Shown: positions 8,155-57,041, counted from the stretch's first letter. The stretch: 64,000 nt of DNA from an uncultured Candidatus Saccharibacteria bacterium (GCA_964615415.1 CAZTNI010000001.1:240746-304745), one strand, 5' to 3'. Translations and numbers: made by a program. The notes: generated from the letters alone by a model not told the origin.

Positions 8155-8215
8155 CGCAACCTCCGCTTTCTATATTCGTTCTTCTAAATTTCATTAGAGC
8201 ACATGTTTACGAAAG

Positions 8216-38872: not shown

Positions 38873-39157
38873 ATGGAGGGTGTAGTTGGAATACTCGGTA
38901 TTGTTGTTTTTATCGCGTCGGCATGGGCTGCAGGATCCTATCTGACCTGGATTCCAATCCTCGTCATTTCTCTGTTGCTTGTGATGCTCTTGGTGTTTCT
39001 CTATAGAAAGGGGAATTTCCAAGGGTTGGAAGGGATCGCTACGACAATGCTTTTTGTCCTCGGGGTGATCTGGATGCTTGTTGCGTGGATCACGTACTAC
39101 ATGGCAACCGACCAGCGCTGGGTTCAAGACTTCTTCAATACATACATATTCCGTTAA
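38873..39157 (+). CDS. Small membrane protein (3 TM)
   Basis: 94-aa hydrophobic ORF. Confidence 0.4.
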   Translation: MEGVVGILGIVVFIASAWAAGSYLTWIPILVISLLLVMLLVFLYRKGNFQGLEGIATTMLFVLGVIWMLVAWITYYMATDQRWVQDFFNTYIFR

Positions 39158-39171
39158 AGGAGGACAGAGGT

Positions 39172-39570: not shown

Positions 39571-39576
39571 GGGAGG

Positions 39577-40092: not shown

Positions 40093-40097
40093 CAAAT

Positions 40098-40130
40098 AAG
40101 CCGCTCTTAAGGGAGCGGCTTTTCTTTTTA
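40098..40130 (+). terminator. Rho-independent terminator, member of the repeated GCCGCTCC…GGAGCGGCTTTTCTTTT family
   Basis: AAGCCGCTCTTAAGGGAGCGGCTTTTCTTTTT. Confidence 0.75.
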
Positions 40131-40189
40131 TATATTTACGACTATAGTCTGCTACGGACTGAAGTAACCTAAACGGAAAGGGTAGATTA

Positions 40190-40615: not shown

Positions 40616-40619
40616 CAAA

Positions 40620-40652
40620 AGCCGCTCCCTTGGGAGCGGCTTTTTCTTTTGG
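40620..40652 (+). terminator. Rho-independent terminator, same repeated family
   Basis: AAAAGCCGCTCCCTTGGGAGCGGCTTTTTCTTTT. Confidence 0.75.
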
Positions 40653-47000: not shown

Positions 47001-48059
47001 TCTACGATCACGGGTATTGTGTTTGCGCGAGATGCAACAGGTACTCTGTATTTGGATGATATAAAATTCATCGCAACCTCTACCTCAGGAAGCCCTGCAA
47101 CATCAACGGTCCGCTACATCCATACAGATCATCTTGGTGGTACCAACGTTGTCACAAATGCGAGTGGTGCGGTGGTAGAAACAATTGACTACTATCCATA
47201 TGGAGAGACTCGTCTTGATGCGAAGGTTGGGACTTATGGAGGAGAAAAGAATAAATATGCGGGTACTGAGTATGACGCAGGTAGTGGTTTGAACTACATG
47301 CAGGCACGTTATCAAAGCCCAACTCGCGGAAACTTCATATCGCAGGATCCGGTGTTCTGGGAGATTGATATTACTAATGATGGTAAAGCAGTTCTCTCAA
47401 ACCCTCAACTTCAAAATTCATACAGTTATGCTGGCAATAATCCAATCGTAAGTAAAGATCCATCTGGAAGATTCCTAGACACCATTCTCGATTTAGGATT
47501 TATAGCTTACGATGTATACAAAGTTGGCCAGGCGGCCTTCACTGGCGGAAATGTTGGTGAGCAGTTAGGATACTTAGGGCTTGATGTAGCTGGGGCAGCC
47601 GTACCATTTGTCACAGGTGCGGGAGTAGCTGCTAGAGGAGTTAAAGCTGCTAATGCGGTAGCAGATGCAGCCGGCGGCGCCAACAAAGCAGGTAATGCTG
47701 CTCAGGCGGCTAATACCGCAGTAAAATCACTACCGGACTCGACGTTGGTCTGCAGAGGAGGAGGTTGCTCGGTGGAAAGTTTTATTAAGGGCAGTAATGA
47801 AGGAAGGGCGGGTCTTAATCCAAGTCCAACAACTCCTCTTACTGGGGTATCAGTAAATATGGGGGGTTCAAAAAATGCACTTATTAGCAATTTGCCTGGT
47901 GACTACCCTAAAGCAGGTTTTACATTCACCAATCAAATACAAAAACTTGGTGGCAATGCAGTATCTAGCCCTTCTCTTAATAATCCTTTCCACGGTCTAA
48001 TCAACGGCCTCAGTGCCCAGCAATTGAATAATATTTTTAAAGTAGAAAAGATAAAATAA
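41019..48059 (+). CDS. Giant secreted Tc-toxin/RHS-type polymorphic toxin: SpvB/TcB-like N-terminal domain, FG-GAP-like region, YD/RHS repeats, RHS repeat-associated core, unassigned C-terminal toxin domain
   Basis: 2346-aa ORF with a signal peptide and an acidic linker. The SpvB motif (…GLQPDLSLLYNSLQYEDGSLVGFGWGLTIPYIERLNRTGVDRLY…) is followed by many YD repeats (YTYDALNRL, YSYDALGNI, YAYDANGNL, YAYDQDGNR). The RHS core reads RYIHTDHLGGTNVVTNASGAVVETIDYYPYGE…ARYQSPTRGNFISQDPVFW. Confidence 0.85.
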   Translation: MNFFPLLIAGPGKIALRLMGMILVVSFFLSPLAPVFAQEADPGAGSETPVAEELLTEEPSEADTSTETSEEPVVEESDPTPTDPTEETSSEEVSESEISELTEESEEDSLLEEELEPEEDSLMSSSGGDQGTGEAVDYAAAGAQAKVDAFGALVQKIQIEVPPGRNGLQPDLSLLYNSLQYEDGSLVGFGWGLTIPYIERLNRTGVDRLYTDNYFSSSMYGELASTSVPGEYRPRTENGDFVKFVFQNNIWTAYDKQGTQYKYGSTTGSQVYDTASSTQVGVWMLQEVRDTNNNYIKYNYQKSDNQIYPSTIIYTGNESTDGIFSVSFSRQTRPDPIFSYKYGFLVETKDRINQITVAVSSSTVRSYALAYTSGNNGYRSMLSSVTETYVNPDGTSVAYAPWQFAYTNQTLSFTDQVEKEEGGYRSPAFVRTDLNGNGLLDIVASFVDWSPAVQKNLRVINNGNFSFTSSGTFSPGSTDVQVTWANANPSPSWLVSSDPGVRLMDINGDALPDVVQSYVCQVTCSTSIQQYFLNLGNGQWQSTAATTTGWNYIVRDQPGTSIPHATIAIIGNVNGDTVDDIFPYEVNYFASTGGGSPRWTSNQGQLVDLNHDGLDDAFARFGTTASTSINRGGTIGITTASTSFSYTATFNGPSAYEDNVDKGIRIMDINNDGLPDLVRSYLFSGGYSSHGDGQYVPQDTSSSTQIYINTGVGWTRMQNPPAIPVISNPSSQSGFWTGAQLIEAVWDQDGDGDAEIGTYTNNMSRQDLLKQITLPTGGYVYATSTPTTQQFTGSQAHHPNSVVPVWTVSEITHDDGNGTRETSRYSYKDGTLWYGGINNRKYAGFASTTESYYGLTTKYYHQGDETDSSRGEYQDSFAKIGKMYRVERTNNDGVVYAKTIYKWDQATTTYGNVFAKLVQKVDMEYNGDGTHKDRAETYTYDNASGNLTEKKEWGEVTASDDGSFSDTGSDIFVTTYTYATVNASSTVSLLASQLKTDQGANTVNESKFYYDSQSFGSATVGNLTKAEKRINPTTFASTTKTYNSYGLPTQQKDENNNATTYVYDAFNLYPATSTNALSQSTKYQYNYALGKLATTTDSNNQTWVKKYDGHGRLLEVQVPDPATSTARVIKTTYTYTDTPLAVSVKKSSYLDATNIVDSYTYYDGLGHAIQTKQEAEGGEWITKDVSYNVRGRVFTETLPYPTTNYVKSSPTATTTLYTNYMYDPLNRVTESHTVVGTTTNTYDDWKKTVTNPLGIAKSFYNDAYDNLVRVDETNSGSTYTTLYTWDGNGALTGITDALSNIRSFTYDMLGRRTQATDLRASGDGTYGTYTYTYDPAGNMKSKVTPVGSTINYTYDALNRLKTEDYTGQAGTETTYTYDACTLGAGKLCVASSTASVVGYAYTPAGLVKTATTTVLGTPTVFTTSSTYDRQGNQTTLTYPDGMEVKYTYNAGGYIETVQKKEASEGSFSNIVSNFNYSPVGQVSRTEYANGAVTTNTYDPATLYRLSNKQTILGGSQQAQNISYSYDALGNILQVTDASNTAAAKTVNYSYDDLSRLVTASTTNATSSPNYRYTYAYNALGNITNGPLGVYTYAGTNYANPHAATAIATTSGGGGGVATTTTHTVFADALTPGWNDWSYNAVLDLNATTTYAGSKAIKVTYSVAWGGSYLQKTAGIQVGTSTALQLALRSTSSSPDVTIDIYGTNDAYLGYADPTDYIGGPIAANTWYLLTIPFSDFGATSTISGIVVARDTPGVLYIDELKTVATSTGGGGSVATTTLAYDANGNLTSDGTFTYTWDYLNRMTQSGNGTATSTYAYDQDGNRVKIVEAGVTTIFPNKFYNAMLGGAGTTTKHIYAGDMLLSTIENTNTAAATTTTHTVFTDALAAGWNDWSYNATLNVNETAVVYSGAKSAKITYSAPWGGAYIQKTGVNVSTSTALQFAIRQPVTTVDVDLDIYGANDQYLGYVNIENFVPGGVLLSNTWQVATIPLSAMGATSTITGIVFARDATGTLYLDDIKFIATSTSGSPATSTVRYIHTDHLGGTNVVTNASGAVVETIDYYPYGETRLDAKVGTYGGEKNKYAGTEYDAGSGLNYMQARYQSPTRGNFISQDPVFWEIDITNDGKAVLSNPQLQNSYSYAGNNPIVSKDPSGRFLDTILDLGFIAYDVYKVGQAAFTGGNVGEQLGYLGLDVAGAAVPFVTGAGVAARGVKAANAVADAAGGANKAGNAAQAANTAVKSLPDSTLVCRGGGCSVESFIKGSNEGRAGLNPSPTTPLTGVSVNMGGSKNALISNLPGDYPKAGFTFTNQIQKLGGNAVSSPSLNNPFHGLINGLSAQQLNNIFKVEKIK

Positions 48060-48060
48060 T

Positions 48061-48513
48061 ATGAAAATAAAAAATGAATCAGATTTTGTAAATGCAGATA
48101 GTAAATTGAATCTGCGGAAAATCTCTTCTAATGAAATAGAGATAACCGACGTCTATGACATCTGGGATGGGCCTTTAAGTGGTAGCTGTCTCTGGGAAAA
48201 TAAAGATTATTATTTTTTCTCTTTTGATCAACTTGAGGATGATAAATCTGGTGATCGCTGGCCAAGAAAATACATTTTAGTTAGCTTAGATTCTGAGCAA
48301 AAGCAAACTGAAGAAGAATTAAAAAACCTTTATTCGGCTTTGAAAAAAGGTGAATTTACCGCCGAAGAATATAGCAACAAATTAGAAAGAATTCCAAAGT
48401 TACAAATAGAAAATAAGCAAATTGTTGGATGGTTTGATTCTGAAGATGTTGAAAAAAATGGAACTCCAACAAGATTCATGCAATCCTATTTTTCGTGGAA
48501 AGAAAAGAATTAA
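48061..48513 (+). CDS. Candidate cognate immunity protein of the RHS C-terminal toxin
   Basis: 150-aa ORF starting 2 nt after the RHS stop. It is markedly AT-rich relative to the RHS gene. That is the typical position and composition for an RhsI-type immunity gene. Confidence 0.55.
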   Translation: MKIKNESDFVNADSKLNLRKISSNEIEITDVYDIWDGPLSGSCLWENKDYYFFSFDQLEDDKSGDRWPRKYILVSLDSEQKQTEEELKNLYSALKKGEFTAEEYSNKLERIPKLQIENKQIVGWFDSEDVEKNGTPTRFMQSYFSWKEKN

Positions 48514-48608
48514 TTCTCTATTTTTGCTTCCATAAAACGCCCATACTGTTACAAACTTTATGGGGTCTGACCCCAATTCCAAATCTAAAGAATAATAAAA
48601 AATAAATT

Positions 48609-48797
48609 ATGCATATTAAAATTGATAAGGATGTAGGTACGGCTTATATTTACATAGCGGACAACCCAGAAGATCTAAAAGGCTCTGTCCGTTCCGAGCC
48701 AGTCAACTCAGATCTGATTATTGACTACACTCCAGACGGAAAATTATTTGGAATTGAAATTCTTAACCTGAAACTTCTCGATCTTGGTGAGAAATGA
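48609..48797 (+). CDS. DUF2283-like small protein (toxin-antitoxin associated family)
   Basis: MHIKIDKDVGTAYIYIADNPEDLKGSVRSEPVNSDLIIDYTPDGKLFGIEILNLKLL resembles DUF2283 (antitoxin partner of DUF4258). Confidence 0.5.
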   Translation: MHIKIDKDVGTAYIYIADNPEDLKGSVRSEPVNSDLIIDYTPDGKLFGIEILNLKLLDLGEK

Positions 48798-48818
48798 AAG
48801 CTAATTGAGAGGCTAAGT

Positions 48819-49144
48819 ATGATTAATAATTCACGGGATAAATATATTAATCTTGCAGTTCAGTATGGTGAGTATAAAAAGAATGGAGAAGCTGAACTTG
48901 CCAACAAGGTACATCAGCAACTCTCTGAAACATCCGACGCAATAAAAAAATTGATCCAGAGGGTTTTGATTTCATTGCTAGTCCTATGAATCACCCTGAA
49001 CCATTTGTAAGACTGTGGGCCGCAACTGATTCAAAAGATTATAAACCAAAGGAGGCGAGAGCAACTTTACGGGAACTCAAATACAACAAAGACGTAGCGG
49101 GGCTAGATGCTTGGGCGTTGTTAAGCATGTGGGGAGAGGAATAA
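48819..49144 (+). pseudogene. Frameshifted (or phase-variable) ~105-aa gene split at an A7 homopolymer
   Basis: Frame 1 (ATG 48819) reads MINNSRDKYINLAVQYGEYKKNGEAELANKVHQQLSETSDAIKK and terminates after the A7 run at 48943-48949. The -1/+1 frame continues as …IDPEGFDFIASPMNHPEPFVRLWAATDSKDYKPKEARATLRELKYNKDVAGLDAWALLSMWGEE* (stop at 49142-49144). Confidence 0.5.
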
Positions 49145-49253
49145 AAAACTTCTGAAATACAGGTTGTAGAGTTGGGGTCAGGGTCCCTTCAATGACAAAA
49201 TCTATATTGCCAGGCTCTTGCGACTGATGGTGCGGTAAAAGTGTAAAAGAAAT

Positions 49254-49288
49254 CGCCCCGACACTTCATGTGTCGGGGCTGTTTTTTA
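49254..49288 (-). terminator. Rho-independent terminator immediately downstream of the minus-strand gene 49286-49837
   Basis: CGCCCCGACAC-TTCA-TGTGTCGGGGC hairpin with flanking T/A tracts. Confidence 0.7.
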
Positions 49289-49837
49289 TCCTGCTTTTTC
49301 GACTGCGGCGCGGGCAGTTTCTTCCATCGTCTTGTAGATAGGGAAATCGTACCCCAGAAGGAGCGTAGTGTTACGCTCTACCATGTCGAGTCCGGAAAAT
49401 CCTTCCTCGCCGCCTATAACGACACGAGTCTCTTTTCGGTAGAACATGTGCGCTCGCCACTCGCCAAGTTCGCCGTAGGAGTCGCGGCCGTAGGGGCCGG
49501 CTTCCGGTGCACGGGGCTCGCGTTGCTCTTCTGCCCAAAAGAGGATGCAGCCTCGCGGGGTGTGCCACGCGGCCCGTGCAAGGTAGTGCCGCTCCCAGTC
49601 GAGCTGTCGATCAAAGATGTCCGCACCCTCTTGCAGGAAGTAGCCAGCAAGTGGGTGTGTGTTATTCCACCTTGCGGGGCAGGCTATGACGCAGTTGCCA
49701 TCCGTCGCTTGGCGCAGGTGCACGACCATTTCGTGTTGCCAGTCGCCGCCACCGCGGATAGGCCCGCCAAGGAAGAAGAAGGGAAGGTCTTCGAATTCCC
49801 GAAGGTCGGGACAATATTTCGGAACAATAATGCGCAT
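49286..49837 (-). CDS. Nucleoside 2-deoxyribosyltransferase-like (Rossmann/SLOG-type) protein, GC-rich
   Basis: N-terminal FFFLGGPIRGGGDW motif typical of the nucleoside 2-deoxyribosyltransferase/LOG-like fold. GC content is much higher than the flanking AT-rich genes. The family assignment is tentative. Confidence 0.45.
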   Translation of the reverse strand: MRIIVPKYCPDLREFEDLPFFFLGGPIRGGGDWQHEMVVHLRQATDGNCVIACPARWNNTHPLAGYFLQEGADIFDRQLDWERHYLARAAWHTPRGCILFWAEEQREPRAPEAGPYGRDSYGELGEWRAHMFYRKETRVVIGGEEGFSGLDMVERNTTLLLGYDFPIYKTMEETARAAVEKAG

Positions 49838-49917
49838 GTGTTCTCCTTTTGTATGTACCTAGCGGCACTATACCGAAAGAGAAGTGTATTTGCCAGGCGT
49901 ATACTTACACTCAATAT

Positions 49918-50139
49918 ATGAGGACGATAAGCGTGCGCGTAACGGCGGGAGCAAAGAAAGAAAAGGTGGAGGAACTTGCAAACGGCCGGCTTGCTATCGC
50001 TGTTAAAGAAAAGCCCGAGCAAGGCAAAGCAAACGAACGGGTGTTGGAGTTGGTTGCAGCACACCTTAAAGTGCCGCGTAAAAAAGTAAGCATTACCCGC
50101 GGCAGCAAAAGCCCGTCTAAAATAATTACCGTCCGATGA
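49918..50139 (+). CDS. DUF167/YggU family protein
   Basis: MRTISVRVTAGAKKEKVEEL…LAIAVKEKPEQGKANERVLELVAAHLKVPRKKVSITRGSKSPSKIITV matches UPF0235/YggU. The start was trimmed to the ATG at 49918. Confidence 0.6.
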   Translation: MRTISVRVTAGAKKEKVEELANGRLAIAVKEKPEQGKANERVLELVAAHLKVPRKKVSITRGSKSPSKIITVR

Positions 50140-50201
50140 ACTTTGCGGGACCTGACCCAATTCCCAGTCTCAACAAATAGGTCTACAATAAAGAAACTTT
50201 C

Positions 50202-50450
50202 ATGGAATTAGTATTACAAATAGGCATTCTTGTGATAGGAGGCTGGTTTGCTTATATAGGAGGTCGGACTTTGTTCTCAAAAAAATACTACGTATCAAAG
50301 ATTGAAAATATAAAAGGTAAAACGGTTGATAATGCATATAAAAATCTGCCACGCTGGAGAATATGGTTTACTCGGTACGATTATTCGACACAATGGCTGA
50401 TTCTTGGTGTCGGGCTACTCACTCTTTTTGTCTTTAGTTTATTTAAGTAA
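50202..50450 (+). CDS. Small 2-TM membrane protein (orphan immunity-like)
   Basis: 82 aa, AT-rich. First of three tandem small TM genes. Confidence 0.4.
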   Translation: MELVLQIGILVIGGWFAYIGGRTLFSKKYYVSKIENIKGKTVDNAYKNLPRWRIWFTRYDYSTQWLILGVGLLTLFVFSLFK

Positions 50451-50456
50451 ATTCTT

Positions 50457-50723
50457 ATGGATGTTCAACAACTTATACTCACTATCCTTGGAACTGGTTT
50501 AGTCATATTTTGCTACTTTAACTGGGTTAAAGCCAAAGATAAGGAATTTCTATTCTTAGGAGTATCTGCTCTGATAGGTTTGTTATTTGCGGGTGCAAAA
50601 TATCTTCCTGTTTCTTCTGAATTTAATCAAGCAAGGGCCGGCATAGGAGTTATCGTTCTTTCAATTCTGTTCCTTTTAGTTTTACGAATGGGATATAAGT
50701 TGTGGTTCAAAAAAAGAAAATGA
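50457..50723 (+). CDS. Small 2-TM membrane protein (orphan immunity-like)
   Basis: 88 aa, AT-rich. Confidence 0.4.
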   Translation: MDVQQLILTILGTGLVIFCYFNWVKAKDKEFLFLGVSALIGLLFAGAKYLPVSSEFNQARAGIGVIVLSILFLLVLRMGYKLWFKKRK

Positions 50724-50750
50724 TCCATATTTAAGTTATTAACATATCTT

Positions 50751-51002
50751 ATGTTGGATTCTTTTTTAATCGTATTGGTCCAGGCTGGAATCTCAGTGAT
50801 TGTAGGAGTAATGGCAATTTTTTACAGGAAACGCCTGACTCGTGAATTTACAGCAAAATTTATCCAGGTATATGGAAATTTTTTCAATTCTAAAAAAGTT
50901 TTTACTTCAAAGTTCTTCAATGATTATTTAGAAGTGGGTTTTGTAGTATTTGGAATTTGCGCCTTGATATTTGCTTTTTTCAATATTGTTAGGTCGATAT
51001 AA
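50751..51002 (+). CDS. Small 2-TM membrane protein (orphan immunity-like)
   Basis: 83 aa, AT-rich. Confidence 0.4.
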   Translation: MLDSFLIVLVQAGISVIVGVMAIFYRKRLTREFTAKFIQVYGNFFNSKKVFTSKFFNDYLEVGFVVFGICALIFAFFNIVRSI

Positions 51003-51015
51003 AATATTTAAGTCG

Positions 51016-51339
51016 ATGAGCAAGACTTTTAGCGAAAAGGTGGTGGAACTCGCACTTTCTGTACCGCCTGGGCGGGTGACTACTTATGGCCGGATTGCTA
51101 TTGCGGCAGGGGGAGGAAGCATGGCCTCGCAAAGCATTTCTAATATTCTTTGGCGCGCGCAGCAGGAAAGAGGAATAAAAAATATACCCTGGCACCGGAT
51201 AGTCTATGCCGATGGAAAAGTGTGGCTCGACGAAGAGCATAAAAAGAAGAGACTGGCGTTGTATAAGAAGGAGAAAATTGTCTTAGATAAAAATAATAGG
51301 ATAGAAAATTTCGTAGATAAACTTTGGGAGTTTAAATAA
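51016..51339 (+). CDS. Alkyltransferase-like protein (ATL; Ogt C-terminal DNA-binding domain with Trp replacing the active-site Cys)
   Basis: VTTYGRIA…PWHRIV: the Ogt PCHRV motif carries W instead of C, which is diagnostic of ATL DNA-damage sensors. Confidence 0.7.
   Translation: MSKTFSEKVVELALSVPPGRVTTYGRIAIAAGGGSMASQSISNILWRAQQERGIKNIPWHRIVYADGKVWLDEEHKKKRLALYKKEKIVLDKNNRIENFVDKLWEFK
51301..51339. repeat. Left copy of a 39-bp imperfect direct repeat flanking the DUF2726 gene (right copy 51901-51939)
   Basis: ATAGAAAATTTCGTAGATAAACTTTGGGAGTTTAAATAA aligns with CCAGAAAACTTCGTAGACAAACTTTGGAAGTTTAAGTAG at about 32 of 39 positions. Both copies span the stop codon of the preceding gene. Confidence 0.75.
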
Positions 51340-51364
51340 AGAAATATGCTAGGCTAGGAGCTAT

Positions 51365-51916
51365 ATGGATGAGCTACAGATTATATCCTCAATTTCGCCA
51401 CAAACTCTCGGCATTTTAATTTTTGGAATAGTGATATTTGTTGCCGCTGTGTTGTTGGGATTGTCTGTAAAGGAAAAAGTAAACACACCGGTTACCAAAA
51501 TACCAAGCTTTTATAAGAAGAAAGAATATCTTTTTGACTCCATCTCAGAATTTAATTTACATAAAACTCTTGTAGAACTTTTTAGCGATCGTTTTTATAT
51601 TTTCTCTCAAATTCAATACAGTCACCTGGTCGAACCTAAACCAGATCTTTGGTGGGAAATGCGAAGACATAGAAGCAGAATTGATAGAAAATCCGCAGAT
51701 TTTGTCTTGTGTGACAAAGAACGTGTTGTACCACAGCTCGTGATCGAATTAGACGGCAGTAGTCATGAGCTAGAAAGGAAGCAAGAAAGAGATCAATTTA
51801 TAAACGAGACTATGGAAGCAGTGGGTCTTCCTATCCTGCATCTATATACGAATCGATTGAATAAGGACTACGTAAAAGAGGAGGTGGAAAGAATATTGTC
51901 CCAGAAAACTTCGTAG
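51365..51916 (+). CDS. DUF2726-type (PD-(D/E)xK/Vsr-like) nuclease domain protein with N-terminal TM
   Basis: ADFVLCDKERVVPQLVIELDGSSHE…RDQFINETMEAVGLPILHL. Confidence 0.6.
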   Translation: MDELQIISSISPQTLGILIFGIVIFVAAVLLGLSVKEKVNTPVTKIPSFYKKKEYLFDSISEFNLHKTLVELFSDRFYIFSQIQYSHLVEPKPDLWWEMRRHRSRIDRKSADFVLCDKERVVPQLVIELDGSSHELERKQERDQFINETMEAVGLPILHLYTNRLNKDYVKEEVERILSQKTS

Positions 51917-52007
51917 ACAAACTTTGGAAGTTTAAGTAGTAAACCCTATCTTCCTCGGCGTGACACAAGGCTCTGTAGGGGAGCGGAGGATGGAACGTTC
52001 GTAGCAC

Positions 52008-52856
52008 TCACTGCACTTGCTTCAATGTTTCAATTCTTTTTTTCCAAACAGACACGTACTCTTTTTTTGTGTTCTCGCAAGAGGATAACCAGTCTCTAAA
52101 ATCTCTCTTTTGTCCTTTGTCCAAAATATATCTATCAATGTATTCAATTAAAAAAGCCGAGGTCCTTAGACACATGCTTATGATCCAAAACCGTTCATTG
52201 TAAGATTCTTCTTTATAGTAGTAAGGATTTCCGTGAAGTATCTCAGAAATGCTTGAATATATTTCATATGTTCTTTCAATTCCAAAAACTTTTATAGAGT
52301 ATGAAGAGAATCGATTCATATTCGCAGGAGTCAAAAGAATTTCTTTTTGTGCAGCAAAAAGTTTATTATCTCTCATCCAATTTTTTGATAATAATTCAGG
52401 ATTTTGTGGAAAATCTGGTTTTGCTCTTGCGATGAAATCTTTATAGAGCTTAAAAGTCTCATCGTAATAAGGATATTTTCCATTACTATTTTTCAACGTC
52501 TTTGCAATCAATAGAGAATGTGCGATGCAGAAAATTGCTTTGTCGTCGTTACTCGGGCAGTTAATTTCTAGATGTACAAAGTTGGCGTAAATGTCCAACA
52601 GAGTGCGTACATTTGGTAACAAATAAATATATTTCTTTTCATCTTCACTTTGCGCTTCAACACCAAGAAAATCTAAAATTTCTTTGTATCGTTTCAGTGC
52701 TCGTATCTGATATATCCGAATAGCAGAGTCGGCAGCTGAAATAGTAAAAGCCTCCTCTTGAAGAGGAGTGAATACCTTAATCCTTTCATCAAAAAGAATA
52801 GAGGCTTGTTTGATAAGGTCTAGTTGGCTATCAATTACTTCCTTGTCTGACTTCAT
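52008..52856 (-). CDS. Hypothetical protein, AT-rich orphan (282 aa)
   Basis: Long ORF on the minus strand with strongly AT-biased composition. No recognisable motif. Confidence 0.5.
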   Translation of the reverse strand: MKSDKEVIDSQLDLIKQASILFDERIKVFTPLQEEAFTISAADSAIRIYQIRALKRYKEILDFLGVEAQSEDEKKYIYLLPNVRTLLDIYANFVHLEINCPSNDDKAIFCIAHSLLIAKTLKNSNGKYPYYDETFKLYKDFIARAKPDFPQNPELLSKNWMRDNKLFAAQKEILLTPANMNRFSSYSIKVFGIERTYEIYSSISEILHGNPYYYKEESYNERFWIISMCLRTSAFLIEYIDRYILDKGQKRDFRDWLSSCENTKKEYVSVWKKRIETLKQVQ

Positions 52857-53016
52857 ATCGGCGCTTTAGGAGACCGTCCCATAATACATTAATTCTGTTC
52901 TGATCTCGTTCCACGCGGCGCAGTATGTTAATTTTGCTATACTTCACTCATGCAAAAGATACACCTTTCCACTTTTATAAATGCTTTGCGGAAAGGGTAG
53001 TAGATTAAAAAATAAA

Positions 53017-53047
53017 GGACCGCGCTGGGCGGTCCTTTTTCTTTGGT
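53017..53047. terminator. Bidirectional Rho-independent terminator
   Basis: AAAGGACCGCGCTGGGCGGTCCTTTTTCTTT. Confidence 0.7.
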
Positions 53048-53052
53048 TGCTG

Positions 53053-53406
53053 CTAGCTCGCAACCTGAAATGGAGAAGGGGTTTGCAGGCGCTCTAGTTC
53101 TTCAGGTTTAATAAGCCCCATCAACAATTTGCCCTGCAGTATCATGACGCTGTGGCCATGACTAAAGTAGGTTTCTTCCTTTCTTGTGCCGCCCGGGTTC
53201 CACTGCTTCTGGAAGAATGTTACTTCTATATGCGCACGTGTTTTATCTAATCGGACAAAGTGAATGGTCCCATGCTTCCTAAAGTGCAGCTTCTCTCCGG
53301 GCTGCAGTTTCCAGACGGAGCTGGTGGGCCCTATCCAGAGATAGAAGACTCCATTGATGTACGCCAGTGTAGGGAAGTGCGTGTACCTGCGCTTCTTGTT
53401 TGCCAA
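53053..53406 (-). CDS. Hypothetical protein (117 aa, beta-rich; possible PUA-like fold)
   Basis: TTG start at 53406, preceded by an AAGGAGGG SD. Confidence 0.5.
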   Translation of the reverse strand: MANKKRRYTHFPTLAYINGVFYLWIGPTSSVWKLQPGEKLHFRKHGTIHFVRLDKTRAHIEVTFFQKQWNPGGTRKEETYFSHGHSVMILQGKLLMGLIKPEELERLQTPSPFQVAS

Positions 53407-53475
53407 TTGACCCTCCTTGGGTCGCCTAGGGTTGGAACGGAATCCGTGCGTACTATGCCATAGGTAGCATATGCT

Positions 53476-53515
53476 GACAAATAGAAAATATGTGGTAGTG
53501 TAGCGGCAGATTCAA
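53476..53515 (+). promoter_or_regulatory. Promoter/5'-UTR module TGACAAA-N-TGTGGTAGTGTAGCGGCAGA, duplicated at 54068-54108
   Basis: TGACAAATAGAAAATATGTGGTAGTGTAGCGGCAGATTC aligns with TGACAAACATAAAAATTGTGGTAGTGTAGCGGCAGACTTC at about 35 of 40 positions. Confidence 0.6.
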
Positions 53516-53537
53516 AACAAGTCCTTTGGAGGTACCC

Positions 53538-54029
53538 ATGATCGACATTCGTTCTGACTCGGCCGACCCGCGTGCGGCAAGGTTGAGCAACTTTACCGAG
53601 CGGCACTTCATCCTTGATGGTGTGCTGTGCAACTCGCTCGAAGGCTTCTTGCAGGGGCTTAAGGCAGAAGCTCTTGAAGTGCAGTGTGCTATTTGCAAGC
53701 TGGTGGGTATCGATGCAAAACAGGCTGGTAATGTGCTTGTAGTCAGAGATCCCCATTTTCTGTATTGGGAAGATGATGCTGTTGCTCGCGATGAAGTTGG
53801 CTACTTTGAACTGCTGACAAGAGCCTACGATGCGGCGTACGACCAGGACCCGACTTTTCGGGAAGACTTGCTTGCAACGGGGCACGAAGAGTTGCGCTAC
53901 ACGGTGGGCAGGTATGATCCTCTTGCAACGGTTCTTACCGAAACAGAATTTCTCTACCAGCTGTACCGTCTGCGTGCCCGAGCACATCGCGAACCAGTGG
54001 CCCAGCAGGAGCTGCCCGGCATTCGTTAA
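53538..54029 (+). CDS. NADAR (YbiA/DUF1768) family protein
   Basis: LSNFTERHFILDGVLCNSLEGFLQGLK matches the NADAR signature. GGAGG SD 5 nt upstream of the ATG. Confidence 0.6.
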   Translation: MIDIRSDSADPRAARLSNFTERHFILDGVLCNSLEGFLQGLKAEALEVQCAICKLVGIDAKQAGNVLVVRDPHFLYWEDDAVARDEVGYFELLTRAYDAAYDQDPTFREDLLATGHEELRYTVGRYDPLATVLTETEFLYQLYRLRARAHREPVAQQELPGIR

Positions 54030-54042
54030 ATGTGGTAGGTAT

Positions 54043-54072
54043 AAAGGCCGCTCCTCCCAGGGCGGCCTTTTT
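54043..54072 (+). terminator. Rho-independent terminator (variant of the repeated family)
   Basis: AAAGGCCGCTCCTCCCAGGGCGGCCTTTTT. Confidence 0.65.
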
Positions 54073-54133
54073 GCTGACAAACATAAAAATTGTGGTAGTG
54101 TAGCGGCAGACTTCTTTACCACGGAGAAACGCC

Positions 54134-54505
54134 ATGTTTGCTAAGTTTGGTGAATTGCTGCTGTATCTCGTGTTCGGGCCTCAGTACTTCTTTTTCCGGA
54201 TCGTGCGGCTGTTGGTGCGTATGGTTGTACCGAAATGGAGTCGTCGCGTTTCGGAGTTTGAACAGACAGAGATGTACGAGCTGCTAGAAGAGCGTGCAAT
54301 ATGGAGCATTTTTCTTTTGTGGTTCATCGTGGCTTTGGTGCTTGCAGTGATGCTCGGGGCACATGCATCGATACCTCTGGTCCCTGTGGTCATGTTCCAC
54401 ATGGTAACTGGGTTGGGGGTTTACATCTTTGCTCGGCACAAGCGAGTAGAGCTTATTCGCAGGGGAGTACGGAATGACCCGGTACGCACTCGCTCTGTTT
54501 CCTGA
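54134..54505 (+). CDS. Hypothetical membrane protein (123 aa)
   Basis: Preceded by the duplicated promoter module. Three TM helices. Confidence 0.45.
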   Translation: MFAKFGELLLYLVFGPQYFFFRIVRLLVRMVVPKWSRRVSEFEQTEMYELLEERAIWSIFLLWFIVALVLAVMLGAHASIPLVPVVMFHMVTGLGVYIFARHKRVELIRRGVRNDPVRTRSVS

Positions 54506-54680
54506 CGAACCGCGGTGCTTGGTGGAAGGGATTGGATCCAACGTAATTAAATTCGACATCAATGGGTGGAAAATATTTGACTCCCTTGAAGAGATCGAGG
54601 AATTTAAAAGGACGCACAAGAACCATTTCTTCGACCTCAACAAACTCACTATCATTGAAGTCCCAAAGGGTAAAACCTGA
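54474..54680 (+). CDS. Small hypothetical protein (68 aa), overlapping the previous gene by 32 nt
   Basis: MTRYALALFPDEPRCLVEGIGSNVIKFDINGWKIFDSLEEIEEFKRTHKNHFFDLNKLTIIEVPKGKT. Confidence 0.35.
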   Translation: MTRYALALFPDEPRCLVEGIGSNVIKFDINGWKIFDSLEEIEEFKRTHKNHFFDLNKLTIIEVPKGKT

Positions 54681-54759
54681 GGGACTTTTTCTTTACGTGA
54701 CAAAGGTTAATAGACGTGGTATTATACAGATAGACGAATCCCACCAAAGGAGACTACCC

Positions 54760-55068
54760 ATGCTCGCATACATCTTCGACGCCGTGCCGCTTCGCGTGCG
54801 GCAGGGCATCACTCTGGCCTTCTACGCACTCGCTGCCCTGGCGTTCGGCTCCGCGTTCTTTGCGGAGTCGGCGATCGGAGTTGCGTCGATGCTGTGGGCG
54901 GCGATCGCGCTTGTGAGCAGTGCCATGTTCCTCCACATCAACATCCGGACCGGCGTCTTTGCGGAGTCGGTGGCGCCGCGCGCCAGCGCGCTCTGTATGC
55001 TGGTCTTCGCGGTGGCGGTTCTCGGCCTGGTCATCACGAGTGCCCGCTTCGACGGCATGTCCCTCTAA
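54760..55068 (+). CDS. Hypothetical membrane protein (102 aa)
   Basis: AAAGGAG SD 8 nt upstream of the ATG at 54760. A promoter GTGACA-N17-TATTAT lies at 54700-54730. The start was trimmed from the track ORF. Confidence 0.5.
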   Translation: MLAYIFDAVPLRVRQGITLAFYALAALAFGSAFFAESAIGVASMLWAAIALVSSAMFLHINIRTGVFAESVAPRASALCMLVFAVAVLGLVITSARFDGMSL

Positions 55069-55072
55069 CCCC

Positions 55073-55108
55073 AGCCGCTCCCTCACAAGGGAGCGGCTTT
55101 TCTTTTTT
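55073..55108 (+). terminator. Rho-independent terminator, repeated family
   Basis: AGCCGCTCCCTCACAAGGGAGCGGCTTTTCTTTTTT, followed by a GTGACAAA-N17-TATAGT promoter. Confidence 0.75.
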
Positions 55109-55169
55109 GGTGACAAAATATACTTTTCGTTGTATAGTCTGAGCGGAAATTGTTCTCAAGGAGGCTTTA

Positions 55170-55814
55170 GTGATTCCTGCTCAGCTTGCCGAAGCGGCAT
55201 CCCACTCGACACGTGCGTACTACGACGAATGTGCTGCGCGTATTAACCGAGACGAAATCCCGCTGCAACCTACGGTGCACTTGGAAGCATTTATCTCTCG
55301 CTTGCGGCCGATGTCAGTCGTGCTCGACATAGGCTGTGGTACCGGACGAGCTATTCCCTCTATCCGCGGTCGTGTACGGCAGCTCAAGGTGATCGGCATC
55401 GATAACTCTAAAAGTATGCTGCACTACGCGAAGGATCGCTACCCGGACATCGACTTCCGGCTCGGCGATGCGCGTGACGTGCGGGCGCTCGTGTCGGAAG
55501 TGTGCGACGGCTTCTTGTGTATAGACACGCTGTCGCATATTCCTCGGGCGCAGCTCGTCTCGACGCTGCAGAATATCCGCGCTGTTCTGAGGCGTGGTGC
55601 AGTGGGGTACATGACGGTACCGCTTGGCACCAAGACTCAGATCTCTCATCGCGCGAGCGCGCACCCGCCGCCGCACTCCCCGAACTACCAGATCCTGATC
55701 GAGGAGTGGACCTCCGAGCGCCTCTCGCCGTGTCTTGCGCAAGCGGGGTTGCAGCCCATTCTTCCTATTTCGAAGAAAGACAGTACGTTACGGCTTAACG
55801 TGGAAGCAGTCTAG
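55170..55814 (+). CDS. Class I SAM-dependent methyltransferase
   Basis: Motif I VLDIGCGTGR. GTG start with an AAGGAGG SD. Confidence 0.65.
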   Translation: MIPAQLAEAASHSTRAYYDECAARINRDEIPLQPTVHLEAFISRLRPMSVVLDIGCGTGRAIPSIRGRVRQLKVIGIDNSKSMLHYAKDRYPDIDFRLGDARDVRALVSEVCDGFLCIDTLSHIPRAQLVSTLQNIRAVLRRGAVGYMTVPLGTKTQISHRASAHPPPHSPNYQILIEEWTSERLSPCLAQAGLQPILPISKKDSTLRLNVEAV

Positions 55815-55836
55815 TTCCTCGTTCCCGCGATACTAC

Positions 55837-55866
55837 GCCGCTCCGTAAGGAGCGGCTTTTTCTTTT
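55837..55866 (+). terminator. Rho-independent terminator, repeated family
   Basis: GCCGCTCCGTAAGGAGCGGCTTTTTCTTTT, followed by a GTGACAAA-N17-CATACT promoter. Confidence 0.75.
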
Positions 55867-55941
55867 CGTGACAAAGTTACATAATTGTGGCATACTACCG
55901 CCTAGTCTGTTCCTCTGTGGTCACGCGCTAAAAGGGAGAAA

Positions 55942-56283
55942 GTGCGCATGTCGCCTTATGCTAAAAGCATTCTGTTTCATATGGGCTTCTGGTTCCCGAA
56001 AATACTCTTTTTATTTCAAGACGAGTTTTTAGCGGTCAACATGAAGAGTCATCCTGAGCGGATCGACAAGATCGGACTCGATATCATCATAGTCCTGGTC
56101 TGCACATTCCTCTTTTTCTTGGTGCTACAGTTGCTGTTCGGACTGGCAGCGGGGTGGCACGGATGGGCCATCGTTGTTGCCATCTACGTGGTCGCTGGTG
56201 TGTGCTTCGACCTGGTGTATCACCGGGTAAAGTTCCAACACATGCTGGGCTACACTAGCAAAACCGCGCAACGTGCGCGGTAG
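55942..56283 (+). CDS. Hypothetical membrane protein (113 aa)
   Basis: AAAGGGAG SD. Start at GTG 55942 or ATG 55948. Two or three TM helices. Confidence 0.45.
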   Translation: MRMSPYAKSILFHMGFWFPKILFLFQDEFLAVNMKSHPERIDKIGLDIIIVLVCTFLFFLVLQLLFGLAAGWHGWAIVVAIYVVAGVCFDLVYHRVKFQHMLGYTSKTAQRAR

Positions 56284-56288
56284 CAAAG

Positions 56289-56322
56289 CGCCGCTCCCTA
56301 AAGGGGAGCGGCTTTTCTTTTT
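56289..56322 (+). terminator. Rho-independent terminator, repeated family
   Basis: GCGCCGCTCCCTAAAGGGGAGCGGCTTTTCTTTTT. Confidence 0.75.
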
Positions 56323-56345
56323 ATAAGCTGGTATACTCTTTCTGT

Positions 56346-57041
56346 ATGAAAGCAGTATTTATTATTCTTGCAGCAATTATTGGAGTGGTAGGAGCTATTT
56401 GGTATTTCTCTCCGAGCGGCCCTGGCGGAGCGCAGTCACAAAACTCGCAAACCGACCTTTTTGGGTATAGCACCACAACAAATAACGGTTCAGATGTCGC
56501 CGGAGCACAAACACAAACGGGCGCTGTGCAGCAAGGTTCGCAAACTACTACTAACAATAAAGTCATGCAAGCAACACTCAAAACAACTAAGGGCGACATC
56601 GTTATCGAATTTTTTGGCACCGATGCGCCAAACACCGTCGCGAATTTTGCAAAACTCGCGCAAGAAGGATTTTACAACGGCACCAAGTTCCATCGCGTTA
56701 TCGCGGGCTTCATGATCCAAGGCGGCGACCCACTTACGAAAGATGACTCTCAAATGGCACGCTGGGGTACCGGCGGTCCGGGCTATCAGTTTGCAGACGA
56801 AATCCACGCAAACAACCGCAACGTCGTTGGTACTATCTCTATGGCGAATGCAGGTCCGAATACGAACGGCAGCCAGTTCTTTATCAACACTGCTAACAAT
56901 AACTTTCTCGACACAAAGCACACGGTTTTTGGCAAGGTGGTAAAGGGTATGGAGGTTGTGGCCGCTATTGAAGCAACTGCTACAGGCCAGGCTGACCGCC
57001 CGGTTGAGCCTATGGTCATCACGAGCGTTACGGTACAGTAG
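56346..57041 (+). CDS. Peptidyl-prolyl cis-trans isomerase, cyclophilin type, membrane-anchored/secreted
   Basis: FHRVIAGFMIQGGDP and SMANAGPNTNGSQFFI are cyclophilin signatures. N-terminal TM plus a Q/T-rich linker. Confidence 0.85.
   Translation: MKAVFIILAAIIGVVGAIWYFSPSGPGGAQSQNSQTDLFGYSTTTNNGSDVAGAQTQTGAVQQGSQTTTNNKVMQATLKTTKGDIVIEFFGTDAPNTVANFAKLAQEGFYNGTKFHRVIAGFMIQGGDPLTKDDSQMARWGTGGPGYQFADEIHANNRNVVGTISMANAGPNTNGSQFFINTANNNFLDTKHTVFGKVVKGMEVVAAIEATATGQADRPVEPMVITSVTVQ

What the first reader, a model, noticed from the sequence alone, without database searches (positions are those of the whole stretch)
53407..56330. Cluster of six monocistronic small genes with cloned promoter and terminator modules (includes a NADAR protein and a SAM methyltransferase)
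Each gene in 53.5-56.3 kb (NADAR 53538-54029, TM 54134-54505, 68-aa 54474-54680, TM 54760-55068, MTase 55170-55814, TM 55942-56283) has its own sigma70-type promoter of the form (G/C)TGACAAA-N17-TAnnnT. Most end with a member of the same hairpin family, GCCGCTCC(C)-N4-6-(G)GGAGCGGCTTTTCTTTT. Two promoter/5'-UTR modules (53476-53515 and 54068-54108) are about 88% identical over 40 nt, including a shared leader GTGTAGCGGCAGA. This modular 'promoter-gene-terminator' repetition suggests a cassette array assembled by duplication or recombination of regulatory modules. NADAR domains reverse ADP-ribosyl modifications, including DarT guanine ADP-ribosylation of DNA, so the NADAR gene could be an antitoxin-like or anti-defence function. 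I do not see a DarT partner. The cluster may be a novel variable gene array.
Basis: partly seen in the sequence, partly recalled or inferred. Interest (0 to 1): 0.65.

Follow-up and report, generated by a model that had tools for sequence, protein, structure and literature searches.

The report
Repeated promoter-terminator junctions flanking small genes
A 3-kb stretch of an uncultivated bacterium's chromosome holds five self-contained mini transcription units, one encoding a relative of the phage T4 enzyme that removes toxic ADP-ribose from DNA; a few promoters and terminators are true copies of one another, but the layout is conserved in a relative and is a modest variation on known themes.

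Summary
The sequence features are real, but the description needs correcting. There are five transcription units, not six. The 68-aa ORF overlaps TM1 by 32 nt and has no promoter of its own. Each unit has a sigma-70-type promoter (TGACAAA -35, -16 TRTG-like element, -10) and ends in a stable hairpin with a U-tract.

True copying is limited to P1/P2 (35/41 identical), junctions J2/J4 (76% over 49 nt), and the GCCGCTCC hairpin stem, which also occurs at 40.1 and 40.6 kb. The other promoters share only consensus elements, and the TTTTCTTTT tail is common to this lineage's terminators.

The "NADAR" is a member of the AdfN/T4 gp30.3 family (PF08010). It has the NADAR fold and the catalytic Glu/Lys pair, and no DarT partner was found.

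A contig from a related organism keeps AdfN, terminator, promoter and TM1 in the same order (75.7% nt identity; dN/dS 0.16 and 0.19). No recombinase, att site or phage gene is nearby. So this is not shown to be a variable cassette array.

The closest analogue is the composite promoter/stem-loop "PeSL" motif of T4-type phages. The functions of the three membrane proteins, the 68-aa protein and the methyltransferase remain unknown.

The parts
53053..53406 (-). 117-aa ORF transcribed divergently from P1. TTG start with an AAGGAGG SD; a bidirectional terminator lies at 53014-53038. Possible sixth unit.
   Evidence: best in frame; GC3 0.61; no family match
53452..53480 (-). Promoter-like site for the 117-aa ORF. 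Its -35 TTGTCA is the reverse complement of P1's TGACAA, so the two promoters are back to back.
   Evidence: the -10 region GTACTATG is conserved in L146
53474..53510 (+). P1: CTGACAAA, TGTGgTAGTGT, then the discriminator/leader AGCGGCAGA. This is the ancestral AdfN promoter.
   Evidence: core conserved upstream of AdfN orthologues in 5 lineages
53538..54029 (+). AdfN-type NADAR, predicted DNA ADP-ribosylglycohydrolase, 163 aa
   Evidence: PF08010 E=6e-36; E35/K42 align with T4 E36/K43; model pLDDT 94.6 matches 2b3w, 8bau and 8bat
54043..54073 (+). T1 hairpin AAAGGCCGCTC/GGGCGGCCTTT with a T-tract; a diverged member of the hairpin family
   Evidence: -22.8 kcal/mol
54074..54110 (+). P2: a copy of the P1 core, 35/41 identical
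54134..54505 (+). TM1, a 123-aa protein with two TM helices; conserved in a relative
   Evidence: orthologue in L146 69/114 identical, dN/dS 0.19
54474..54680 (+). 68-aa soluble protein, co-transcribed with TM1 (32-nt overlap); belongs to a small conserved family
   Evidence: 11 homologues at 40-59% identity; model pLDDT 85.6 with no PDB match
54657..54695 (+). T2 hairpin (GAAGUCCC/GGGACUUU) with a UUUUUCUUU tail; the stem is not the GCCGCTCC type
   Evidence: -17.1 kcal/mol
54697..54725 (+). P3: GTGACAAA, CGTGgTATTAT
   Evidence: junction J2 is 76% identical to J4 over 49 nt
54760..55068 (+). TM2, a 102-aa membrane protein with GC3 0.85 and an internal duplication
   Evidence: D13
55073..55108 (+). 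T3: GCCGCTCCC-loop-GGGAGCGGC followed by TTTTCTTTT
   Evidence: -22.5 kcal/mol
55110..55138 (+). P4: GTGACAAA, CGTTgTATAGT
55170..55814 (+). Class I SAM-dependent methyltransferase, 214 aa, substrate unknown
   Evidence: Methyltransf_25 E=2e-17; only generic matches in NCBIfam, PDB and PADLOC
55837..55866 (+). T4: GCCGCTCC-GTAA-GGAGCGGC followed by TTTTTCTTTT
   Evidence: -18.4 kcal/mol
55868..55896 (+). P5: GTGACAAA, TGTGgCATACT
55948..56283 (+). TM3, a 111-aa protein with two TM helices; an ORFan
   Evidence: (matches only itself among 5.8 billion proteins)
56290..56325 (+). T5: GCCGCTCCCC-loop-GGGGAGCGGC followed by TTTTCTTTTTATA. Positions 56304-56325 are identical to 40111-40132.
   Evidence: -21.2 kcal/mol
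40098..40132 (+). Additional copy of the hairpin family, after the TM/REC/DUF7718-like operon
40617..40650 (+). Additional copy of the hairpin family, after a stand-alone HisI-like gene

Best explanation
This is a chromosomal stretch, probably from a CPR/Patescibacteria-like bacterium, with no mobile-element hallmarks. It consists of five back-to-back, self-contained transcription units, plus possibly one divergent unit.

How each unit is built. Each starts at a strong sigma-70/sigma-A-type promoter (TGACAAA -35, Gram-positive-style -16 TRTG element, -10). It has a short SD-containing leader, one small gene (TM1 plus the 68-aa ORF in one case), and a strong intrinsic terminator. The terminator's T-tract runs directly into the next -35. 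Every intergenic spacer is therefore a composite terminator/promoter junction that insulates neighbouring units and re-initiates transcription.

How the modules arose. Some modules are true paralogues made by local duplication or gene conversion. AdfN's ancestral promoter core was copied onto the TM1 promoter. J2 and J4 are homologous as whole junctions. The GCCGCTCC hairpin was spread to 5-6 sites in two clusters.

What the genes do. Unit 1 encodes an orphan AdfN-type NADAR that most likely removes ADP-ribose from DNA bases, protecting the cell against a DarT-like DNA ADP-ribosylating toxin from outside. The other products (three small membrane proteins, a 68-aa protein, a SAM methyltransferase) are accessory genes of unknown role.

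Shown versus inferred. Shown: the anatomy, family membership, module homology, and conservation of units 1-2. Inferred: promoter and terminator activity, enzyme activity, and the direction and timing of the conversion.
For: - Anatomy and enrichment of the signals.
- Module homology: P1/P2 are 35/41 identical, against a shuffled maximum of 30.
- Direction of copying: the P1-type core TAnTGT-nGCGGCnGA is conserved upstream of AdfN orthologues in five lineages. The window's P2 resembles P1 types (36/41 and 35/41) more than its positional orthologue (31/42), yet its leader stays orthologous.
- Composite junctions: J2 and J4 are 76% identical over 49 nt, spanning hairpin arm, T-tract and promoter.
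- Hairpin family: six of about 16 strong terminators share the GCCGCTC(C) stem, with different loops, in two clusters.
- Mixed gene origins: GC3 is 0.55-0.85 against 0.51 +/- 0.06 for core genes, while the junctions between the genes are alike.
- AdfN membership: and PMC11257639.
- Chromosomal and vertically inherited: L146 is syntenic, with dN/dS 0.16 and 0.19. Neighbours are cellular genes with no recombinase.
- AdfN homologues in relatives are also solitary monocistronic genes between terminators.
Against: - There are no expression data.
- Only one related contig exists (1 kb), so nothing is known about units 3-5 in relatives.
- Three of the five promoters share only consensus elements.
- The hairpin sequence occurs as single copies in many unrelated bacteria, so some convergence is possible.
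- The perfect hairpins follow the high-GC3 genes. They could therefore have been imported with those genes rather than copied locally.
- The rest of the 316-kb source contig could not be examined, so genome-wide frequency is untested.
Confidence: 0.55

Rival explanations
1. This is ordinary accessory-gene spacing. The promoters and terminators look alike only because they are strong versions of the organism's consensus signals. No module copying has functional or evolutionary significance.
For: - Promoter pairs other than P1/P2 are at shuffled-background identity.
- The -16 TRTG element and TGACAAA also occur at other likely promoters, at 5728, 27068, 29517 and 36940.
- The TTTCTTT tail is on unrelated terminators here and in relatives.
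- The hairpin occurs singly in many unrelated genomes.
Against: - P1/P2 are 35/41 identical, including the non-consensus spacer and discriminator.
- A 22-nt stretch is identical between 40111 and 56304.
- Six of about 16 strong terminators share one stem, while the other ten are all different.
- The window's P2 is closer to P1 than to its own positional orthologue.
Confidence: 0.25
2. Units 3-5 and the 38.9-40.65 kb cluster were imported from one higher-GC donor (a bacterium or mobile element) together with that donor's own terminators and promoters. On this view the repeated modules are a donor signature, not local duplication.
For: - The clean GCCGCTCC hairpins follow the higher-GC3 genes: TM2 0.85, MTase 0.67, TM3 0.66, HisI-like 0.75 and the 171-aa gene 0.55.
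- The conserved AdfN and TM1 units have the diverged T1 and the unrelated T2.
- P3-P5 start GTGACAAA, whereas P1 and P2 start CTGACAAA.
Against: - GC3 differs greatly among these genes (0.55-0.85), which argues against a single donor.
- No donor was found. The composite junction is absent from the viral collection, and its metagenome hits are unrelated.
- No integration hallmarks are present.
- T1 and its L146 orthologue already carry a related GCCGC stem and the same tail.
Confidence: 0.15
3. This is an orphan-immunity or anti-toxin gene array belonging to the RHS polymorphic-toxin locus 5.4 kb upstream. The NADAR would neutralise an ADP-ribosylating toxin, and the small membrane proteins would neutralise membrane-targeting toxins delivered by competitors.
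For: - A 2346-aa SpvB/FG-GAP/RHS protein with an unassigned C-terminal tip lies at 41019-48059, followed by small low-GC ORFs.
- The AdfN paper itself speculates that stand-alone bacterial NADARs protect against toxins delivered by competitors (PMC11257639).
- Small ORFan membrane proteins are typical of immunity genes (my own knowledge).
Against: - No ORF matches a known immunity family, and the toxin tip has no ART or any other assignment.
- The array is separated from the toxin by 5 kb of genes on both strands.
- AdfN and 68-aa homologues in relatives sit next to housekeeping genes, not toxins.
- AdfN-TM1 linkage is conserved under purifying selection, unlike rapidly turning-over immunity islands.
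Confidence: 0.08
4. This is a remnant of a prophage or a phage early ('moron') region, brought in with the gp30.3-like gene.
For: - PF08010 is best known from T4-type phages; 1,509 phage records carry a homologue.
- Small genes with individual strong promoters and stem-loops resemble phage hyperplastic regions (PMC2839356).
Against: - No other array protein has any phage match.
- There are no structural, integrase or replication genes.
- The closest AdfN relatives are all on cellular contigs.
- Identity to phage proteins is at most 44.5%.
Confidence: 0.04

Closest known systems
AdfN (T4 gp30.3; Pfam PF08010 Phage_30_3), the anti-DarT factor NADAR of T-even phages (PMC11257639)
   Same: It shares the sequence family (123.7 bits against a cut-off of 36) and the NADAR fold. 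The catalytic Glu/Lys pair and the C-terminal helix that the inactive RB69 allele lacks are both present. It stands alone, with no DarT.
   Different: It is encoded on a cellular chromosome of a CPR-like bacterium, not on a lytic phage. Identity to T4 is 37%. It would act as a host-side orphan antitoxin or repair enzyme rather than as a phage counter-defence. Its activity and substrate are untested.
PeSL (promoter-early stem-loop) composite promoter/terminator cassettes of T4-type phage hyperplastic regions (PMC2839356, PMC4122927)
   Same: Both are small intergenic motifs that combine a strong sigma-70-like promoter, an A/T-rich tract upstream of the -35, and a terminator stem-loop. Both are repeated between small genes that are often ORFans. 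There is evidence here of exchange between motif copies (P1 to P2).
   Different: This is a bacterial chromosome, not a phage genome. The stem-loop always lies upstream of the -35. Only some copies are demonstrably homologous. No PeSL-bounded indel or mini-circle was observed, and the one comparison available shows conserved synteny.
DarTG1 toxin-antitoxin system (DarG1 NADAR antitoxin)
   Same: It has the same enzyme superfamily and predicted chemistry, namely removal of ADP-ribose from DNA guanine.
   Different: There is no adjacent DarT toxin gene and no operon with a toxin. The protein falls in the gp30.3 sequence cluster, not the DarG1 cluster.
Integron gene-cassette arrays and recombinase-associated orphan-immunity arrays (rAID-type; the latter from my own knowledge)
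   Same: Both are tandem small genes of mixed composition separated by repeated intergenic elements.
   Different: There is no integrase or recombinase and no attC-like site. Every unit has its own promoter and terminator, whereas integron cassettes are promoterless.

Membership tests
AdfN / Phage_30_3 (PF08010), NADAR superfamily | Significant match to the family profile | tested here: met
   PF08010 E=6.4e-36, 123.7 bits against a cut-off of 36, covering profile positions 4-137 of 138. The Pfam NADAR model itself did not match at E<=0.1.
AdfN / Phage_30_3 (PF08010), NADAR superfamily | NADAR fold | tested here: met
   AF2 model with pLDDT 94.6. The only significant PDB matches are YbiA 2b3w, Phytophthora NADAR 8bau and Geobacter lovleyi NADAR 8bat, with probabilities 0.99-1.00.
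AdfN / Phage_30_3 (PF08010), NADAR superfamily | Catalytic Glu and Lys (T4 AdfN E36 and K43; mutating either abolishes function, PMC11257639) | tested here: met
   E35 and K42 align with T4 E36 and K43. They are invariant in 10 and in 45 sequences.
AdfN / Phage_30_3 (PF08010), NADAR superfamily | Intact C-terminal helix (its loss inactivates the RB69 allele) | tested here: met
   Helix at residues 135-151 in the model, aligned to the T4 C-terminus.
AdfN / Phage_30_3 (PF08010), NADAR superfamily | DNA ADP-ribosylglycohydrolase activity | not testable with these tools
   Requires biochemistry on DarT1-modified DNA.
AdfN as a phage counter-defence factor | Encoded by a phage genome | tested here: not met
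   The neighbours are cellular genes (cyclophilin, MsrB, YgjP-like, sortase, LexA, tRNAs) and there are no phage genes. The closest homologues are on cellular contigs.
DarTG toxin-antitoxin | Adjacent DarT ADP-ribosyltransferase gene | tested here: not met
   The adjacent ORFs have no such match. No DarT family appeared among PADLOC matches of 82 window ORFs; any single-member match better than about 1e-10 would have been listed. A very divergent DarT cannot be excluded.
PeSL composite promoter/terminator cassettes | A sigma-70-like promoter and a terminator stem-loop combined in one short intergenic motif, with an A/T-rich tract upstream of the -35 | tested here: met
   Junctions J1-J4 each have a hairpin (-17 to -23 kcal/mol), a T-tract, TGACAAA and a -10, all within intergenic spacers of 79-133 nt.
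PeSL composite promoter/terminator cassettes | Repeated motif concentrated among small or ORFan genes | tested here: met
   All 5 full-model matches in 64 kb lie in this 2.9-kb stretch. TM1 and TM3 found only themselves in the protein-database search, although TM1 has an orthologue in L146.
PeSL composite promoter/terminator cassettes | Located in hyperplastic regions of T4-type phage genomes | tested here: not met
   The context is a bacterial chromosome.
PeSL composite promoter/terminator cassettes | Indels or replacements between close relatives bounded by the motifs | tested here: inconclusive
   Only L146 was available. Units 1-2 are syntenic, but the P2 promoter core appears replaced by P1-type sequence. 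No data exist for units 3-5.
PeSL composite promoter/terminator cassettes | Formation of mini-circles by recombination between motifs | not testable with these tools
   Needs PCR or long-read evidence.
Integron cassette array | IntI integrase, attI/attC sites and promoterless cassettes | tested here: not met
   No integrase or recombinase domain was found in the ORFs scanned. Each unit has its own promoter. No attC-like or att-like repeats were found.
Polymorphic-toxin immunity array | Genes directly downstream of the toxin that belong to known immunity families | tested here: not met
   The array lies 5.4 kb from the RHS gene, with genes on both strands in between. There are no immunity-family matches.

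The most novel reading that the evidence does not exclude
The composite terminator/promoter junctions could act as recombination substrates, like phage PeSLs, in a bacterial (CPR-like) chromosome. On this reading they form a recombinase-independent 'ORFanage' that captures, insulates and expresses foreign small genes, including an orphan anti-ADP-ribosylation enzyme. The GCCGCTCC hairpins at 40 kb and 55-56 kb would mark genes moved by this route.
Probability: 0.12. Interest if true: 0.65.

Novelty: new variant of a known kind. Interest (0 to 1): 0.33.

Why it matters
If the junctions do mediate gene shuffling, a mechanism so far described only in T4-type phages would also operate in the reduced genomes of uncultivated bacteria. 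That would help explain how those genomes acquire and express lineage-specific small genes without dedicated recombinases.

Separately, a conserved stand-alone AdfN-type NADAR under purifying selection in these bacteria is a concrete, testable example of the 'orphan antitoxin' idea raised for bacterial NADARs. As things stand, the evidence supports only a modest claim: a tidy set of insulated mini-operons with a few copied regulatory modules.

Tried and rejected
- **Genome-wide test of the hairpin.** It says nothing about the source, but it does show that the sequence is not unique.
- **Metagenome scan for the composite junction.** It gave 13 loci, all unrelated chance matches with no homology to the window.
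- **Viral-collection scans.** Scans for four array proteins (AdfN, TM1, TM3, MTase) and two module patterns found nothing. These detect only close relatives or exact matches.
- **tblastn of TM1, TM2, TM3 and the 68-aa protein against 50,697 phage records.** No match.
- **Exact-protein look-ups of the cyclophilin and the MTase.** Not on record, probably because the gene caller chose other start codons. Two look-ups were wasted.
- **Paralogy among TM1, TM2 and TM3.** No significant similarity.
- **Rfam.** Only tRNAs. The sub-threshold matches are the terminators themselves.
- **RHS C-terminal tip against Pfam and PDB.** No assignment, so no ART link to the NADAR could be made.
- **Source organism name.** Not given.
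- **REP/RAYT-type and DNA-uptake-sequence-type explanations for the hairpin.** Rejected. There is no GTAG motif, no RAYT was seen, and the 8-mer is not enriched outside the hairpins (10 of 11 occurrences are hairpin arms).

Full report
**1. What is in the sequence**

The six ORFs are present between 53.4 and 56.3 kb on the + strand. Each scores best in its annotated frame under a codon model trained on 30 long genes of the window. They form five transcription units, not six. The 68-aa ORF (54474-54680) overlaps TM1 (54134-54505) by 32 nt and has no promoter, so the two are co-transcribed. TM3 most likely starts at ATG 55948, which lies 9 nt after the GGGAG Shine-Dalgarno sequence; the GTG at 55942 is only 3 nt away. 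An independent gene call on another assembly uses the same ATG start. Two contigs from other sequencing runs are 100% identical to the window across 52687-54207 and 55215-56909, so the arrangement is not an assembly artefact.

**2. Promoters**

The five sites are:

| Site | Position | -35 | -16 / -10 |
|---|---|---|---|
| P1 | 53474 | CTGACAAA | TGTGgTAGTGT |
| P2 | 54074 | CTGACAAA | TGTGgTAGTGT |
| P3 | 54697 | GTGACAAA | CGTGgTATTAT |
| P4 | 55110 | GTGACAAA | CGTTgTATAGT |
| P5 | 55868 | GTGACAAA | TGTGgCATACT |

- A pattern built from these sites (TGACA, spacer, YGTKG, YAnnnT) matches five times in the 64-kb window, and all five matches are these sites. Because the pattern was derived from them, this shows only that nothing else in the window fits it.
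- Independently, five of the twelve TGACAAA heptamers in the window lie here, all on the + strand and all intergenic. The binomial P is about 4e-6.
- The elements themselves are not exotic. They are a sigma-70/sigma-A consensus with the -16 'TRTG' extension known from Gram-positive promoters (my own knowledge). TRTG-type -10 regions and a TTGACAAA -35 also occur at other likely promoters in the window, at 5728, 27068, 29517 and 36940.
- Only P1/P2 are clearly homologous: 90% over 39 nt, or 35/41 against a shuffled mean of 22.5 and maximum of 30. P3/P5 reach 30/43. The other pairs (24-28 identical) sit at background plus consensus.

**3. Terminators and junctions**

- All five units end in stable hairpins followed by U-tracts, with energies of -17.1 to -22.8 kcal/mol and z-scores of -3.4 to -6.7.
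- T3, T4 and T5 share the stem GCCGCTCC/GGAGCGGC with different loops. T1 (GGCCGCTC/GGGCGGCC) is a diverged relative. T2 is a different hairpin whose 5' arm lies inside the 68-aa coding sequence.
- The same family also occurs at 40098 and 40617, after a TM/receiver-domain/DUF7718-like operon and after a stand-alone HisI-like gene. Positions 40111-40132 are identical to 56304-56325.
- Of roughly 16 strong terminators in the window, six carry this stem and the other ten are all different. The stem is therefore cluster-specific.
- The TTTTCTTTT-type tail is on unrelated terminators here (for example 36857, 58608 and 63983) and in related genomes.
- Each T-tract abuts the next -35. Every spacer is thus a composite terminator/promoter junction. 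J2 and J4 are 76% identical over 49 nt, spanning the hairpin arm, T-tract, -35, spacer and -10.

**4. The proteins**

- **Protein 1** matches Pfam Phage_30_3 (PF08010; E=6e-36) rather than the Pfam NADAR model.
  - T4 gp30.3 is AdfN, a NADAR-superfamily DNA ADP-ribosylglycohydrolase that neutralises DarT1. Mutating E36 or K43 abolishes its function (PMC11257639).
  - The window protein is 37% identical to T4 gp30.3. Its E35 and K42 align with the T4 catalytic pair and are invariant in 45 homologues.
  - Its AlphaFold model (pLDDT 94.6) matches only the three solved NADAR structures.
  - 1,509 T4-type phage records carry a homologue, at up to 44.5% identity.
- **The methyltransferase** is a generic class I SAM enzyme with no specific assignment.
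- **TM1 and TM3** found only themselves among 5.8 billion proteins.
- **The 68-aa protein** has 11 homologues at 40-59% identity and a confident beta-beta-beta-alpha-beta model with no PDB match.
- None of the small proteins has a phage match. There is no detectable paralogy among the membrane proteins.

**5. Context**

- No DarT-like protein was detected among 82 window ORFs scanned against PADLOC. Any single-member match better than about 1e-10 would have been listed.
- No integrase, transposase or att-like repeat is nearby.
- Upstream lies a 2346-aa SpvB/FG-GAP/RHS protein whose C-terminal tip has no assignment, followed by a low-GC block (32-44% GC) of small genes. Downstream are cyclophilin, a YgjP-like protein, MsrB and a PIG-L-type deacetylase.
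- GC3 of the array genes is uneven: 0.55, 0.58, 0.58, 0.85, 0.67 and 0.66, against 0.51 +/- 0.06 for core genes. The genes probably have mixed histories, even though the junctions between them look alike.

**6. Relatives**

- AdfN homologues at 51-62% identity in CPR-like contigs are solitary genes next to ATP synthase, YchF or nucleotide-metabolism genes. Each sits between terminators with its own promoter, and none has a DarT or an array.
- The key locus is L146, a 1,060-bp contig from another metagenome. It aligns with window 53427-54468 at 75.7% nucleotide identity and carries AdfN (82% aa), a terminator, a promoter and TM1 (69/114 aa identical) in the same order.
- dN/dS is 0.16 for AdfN and 0.19 for TM1. 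TM1 is therefore a real gene, and units 1-2 are inherited vertically.
- The -10/discriminator core TAnTGT-nGCGGCnGA is conserved upstream of AdfN in five lineages. It is AdfN's ancestral promoter.
- The window's P2 core is closer to P1-type sequences than to its positional orthologue, while its leader remains orthologous:

| Comparison | Identical / aligned |
|---|---|
| Window P2 vs window P1 | 36/41 |
| Window P2 vs relative's P1 | 35/41 |
| Window P2 vs relative's P2 (positional orthologue) | 31/42 |
| Relative's P1 vs relative's P2 | 26/42 |

- The simplest reading is duplication of the AdfN promoter onto TM1, followed by gene conversion (concerted evolution) in the window's lineage.

**7. 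Interpretation**

The best-supported picture is a chromosomal set of insulated mini-operons. Their composite terminator/promoter junctions are partly paralogous, and the first unit encodes an orphan AdfN-type NADAR.

The closest described analogue for the junctions is the PeSL motif of T4-type phage hyperplastic regions. PeSLs combine strong sigma-70-like promoters, an A/T-rich upstream tract and a terminator stem-loop. They are repeated upstream of ORFans and mediate modular shuffling (PMC2839356, PMC4122927). The anatomical features are met here. The phage context is not. The defining evolutionary behaviour, indels bounded by the motifs, could not be shown, and the one comparison available shows conserved synteny. 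The locus may therefore work like a PeSL array, but it is not a member of that family, and 'variable cassette array' is not supported.

The rivals are pure consensus convergence, import of units 3-5 with donor signals, an RHS-linked immunity array, and a prophage remnant. They are weighed in the Rival explanations section.

**8. Limits**

- The genome-collection and metagenome scans did not recover the source genome or further relatives. Genome-wide frequency of the modules and the state of units 3-5 in relatives remain unknown.
- Promoter, terminator and enzyme activities are all inferred.
- The organism is inferred to be CPR/Patescibacteria-like only from the closest homologues (for example a 'Candidatus Pacebacteria' entry) and from gene content.

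Noticed in passing
window 41019-48513: A 2346-aa SpvB/FG-GAP/RHS-type polymorphic toxin. Its last ~200-300 aa match no Pfam or PDB entry. A 150-aa low-GC (32%) ORF follows 1 nt after its stop codon and is a likely cognate immunity gene.
   Followed up: partly
window 48000-53000: A low-GC block (ORFs 32-44% GC) of small genes on both strands: DUF2283, DUF167/YggU, three tandem 82-88-aa membrane ORFs (50202-51002), an alkyltransferase-like DNA_binding_1 protein, a DUF2726 nuclease-like protein, and a 282-aa ORF with a weak LAGLIDADG hit. One ~58% GC ORF (49286-49837, - strand) is embedded in it. The block looks like a mosaic accessory island.
   Followed up: partly
window 38873-40650: A second cluster uses the same GCCGCTCC terminator family. 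It holds a 94-aa membrane protein, a receiver-domain-only response regulator and a DUF7718-like protein in one operon, followed by a stand-alone HisI-like PRA-CH gene with GC3 0.75. A lone PRA-CH domain in a reduced genome is odd.
   Followed up: partly
window 56323-56348: The cyclophilin gene has an extended -10 (TGGTATACT) ending about 8 nt before its ATG, and no Shine-Dalgarno sequence. The transcript is probably leaderless and starts immediately after terminator T5.
   Followed up: no
window 53452-53501: P1 and the promoter-like site for the divergent 117-aa ORF are back to back. They share one near-palindromic -35 (TTTGTCA/TGACAAA). The minus-strand -10 region is conserved in L146.
   Followed up: partly
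window 54857-54871 and 54956-54970: A perfect 15-nt direct repeat 99 nt apart inside TM2, corresponding to a repeated FAES motif. TM2 appears to have arisen by internal duplication of a membrane segment. Its GC3 of 0.85 is far above the window norm.
   Followed up: no
L008 3120-3160 and 3705-3760; L147 1600-1690 and 2200-2330: In related genomes the AdfN gene is flanked by near-identical copies of a different hairpin (L008: GGGCGCTyACGGTTTATCCGCGGGCGCTC). In L147, terminators run straight into TTGACA promoters. Lineage-specific repeated terminators and composite junctions may be a general habit of these bacteria.
   Followed up: partly
window 53496-53515; L146, L148, L008, L002 upstream of the AdfN orthologues: A conserved -10/GC-rich discriminator/leader (TAnTGT-nGCGGCnGA-(A)TTCAA) persists upstream of AdfN across lineages with only 56-82% protein identity. 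This suggests a regulated promoter or a conserved operator.
   Followed up: partly
L005-L007 (AdfN homologue at 8001-8498): In one marine lineage the AdfN homologue sits inside a nucleotide-metabolism cluster (DHFR, thymidylate synthase, dCMP deaminase, dUTPase, thymidylate kinase). In T4, gene 30.3 also lies a few kb from cd (dCMP deaminase).
   Followed up: no
P0127 (homologue of the 68-aa protein): One homologue carries two tandem copies of the 68-aa domain. Another homologue (P0123, L144) is a solitary gene after an OTCase-like gene near EF-Tu/S10. The family has invariant R14, F27, F35, F44, H51 and L58 and no known function.
   Followed up: partly
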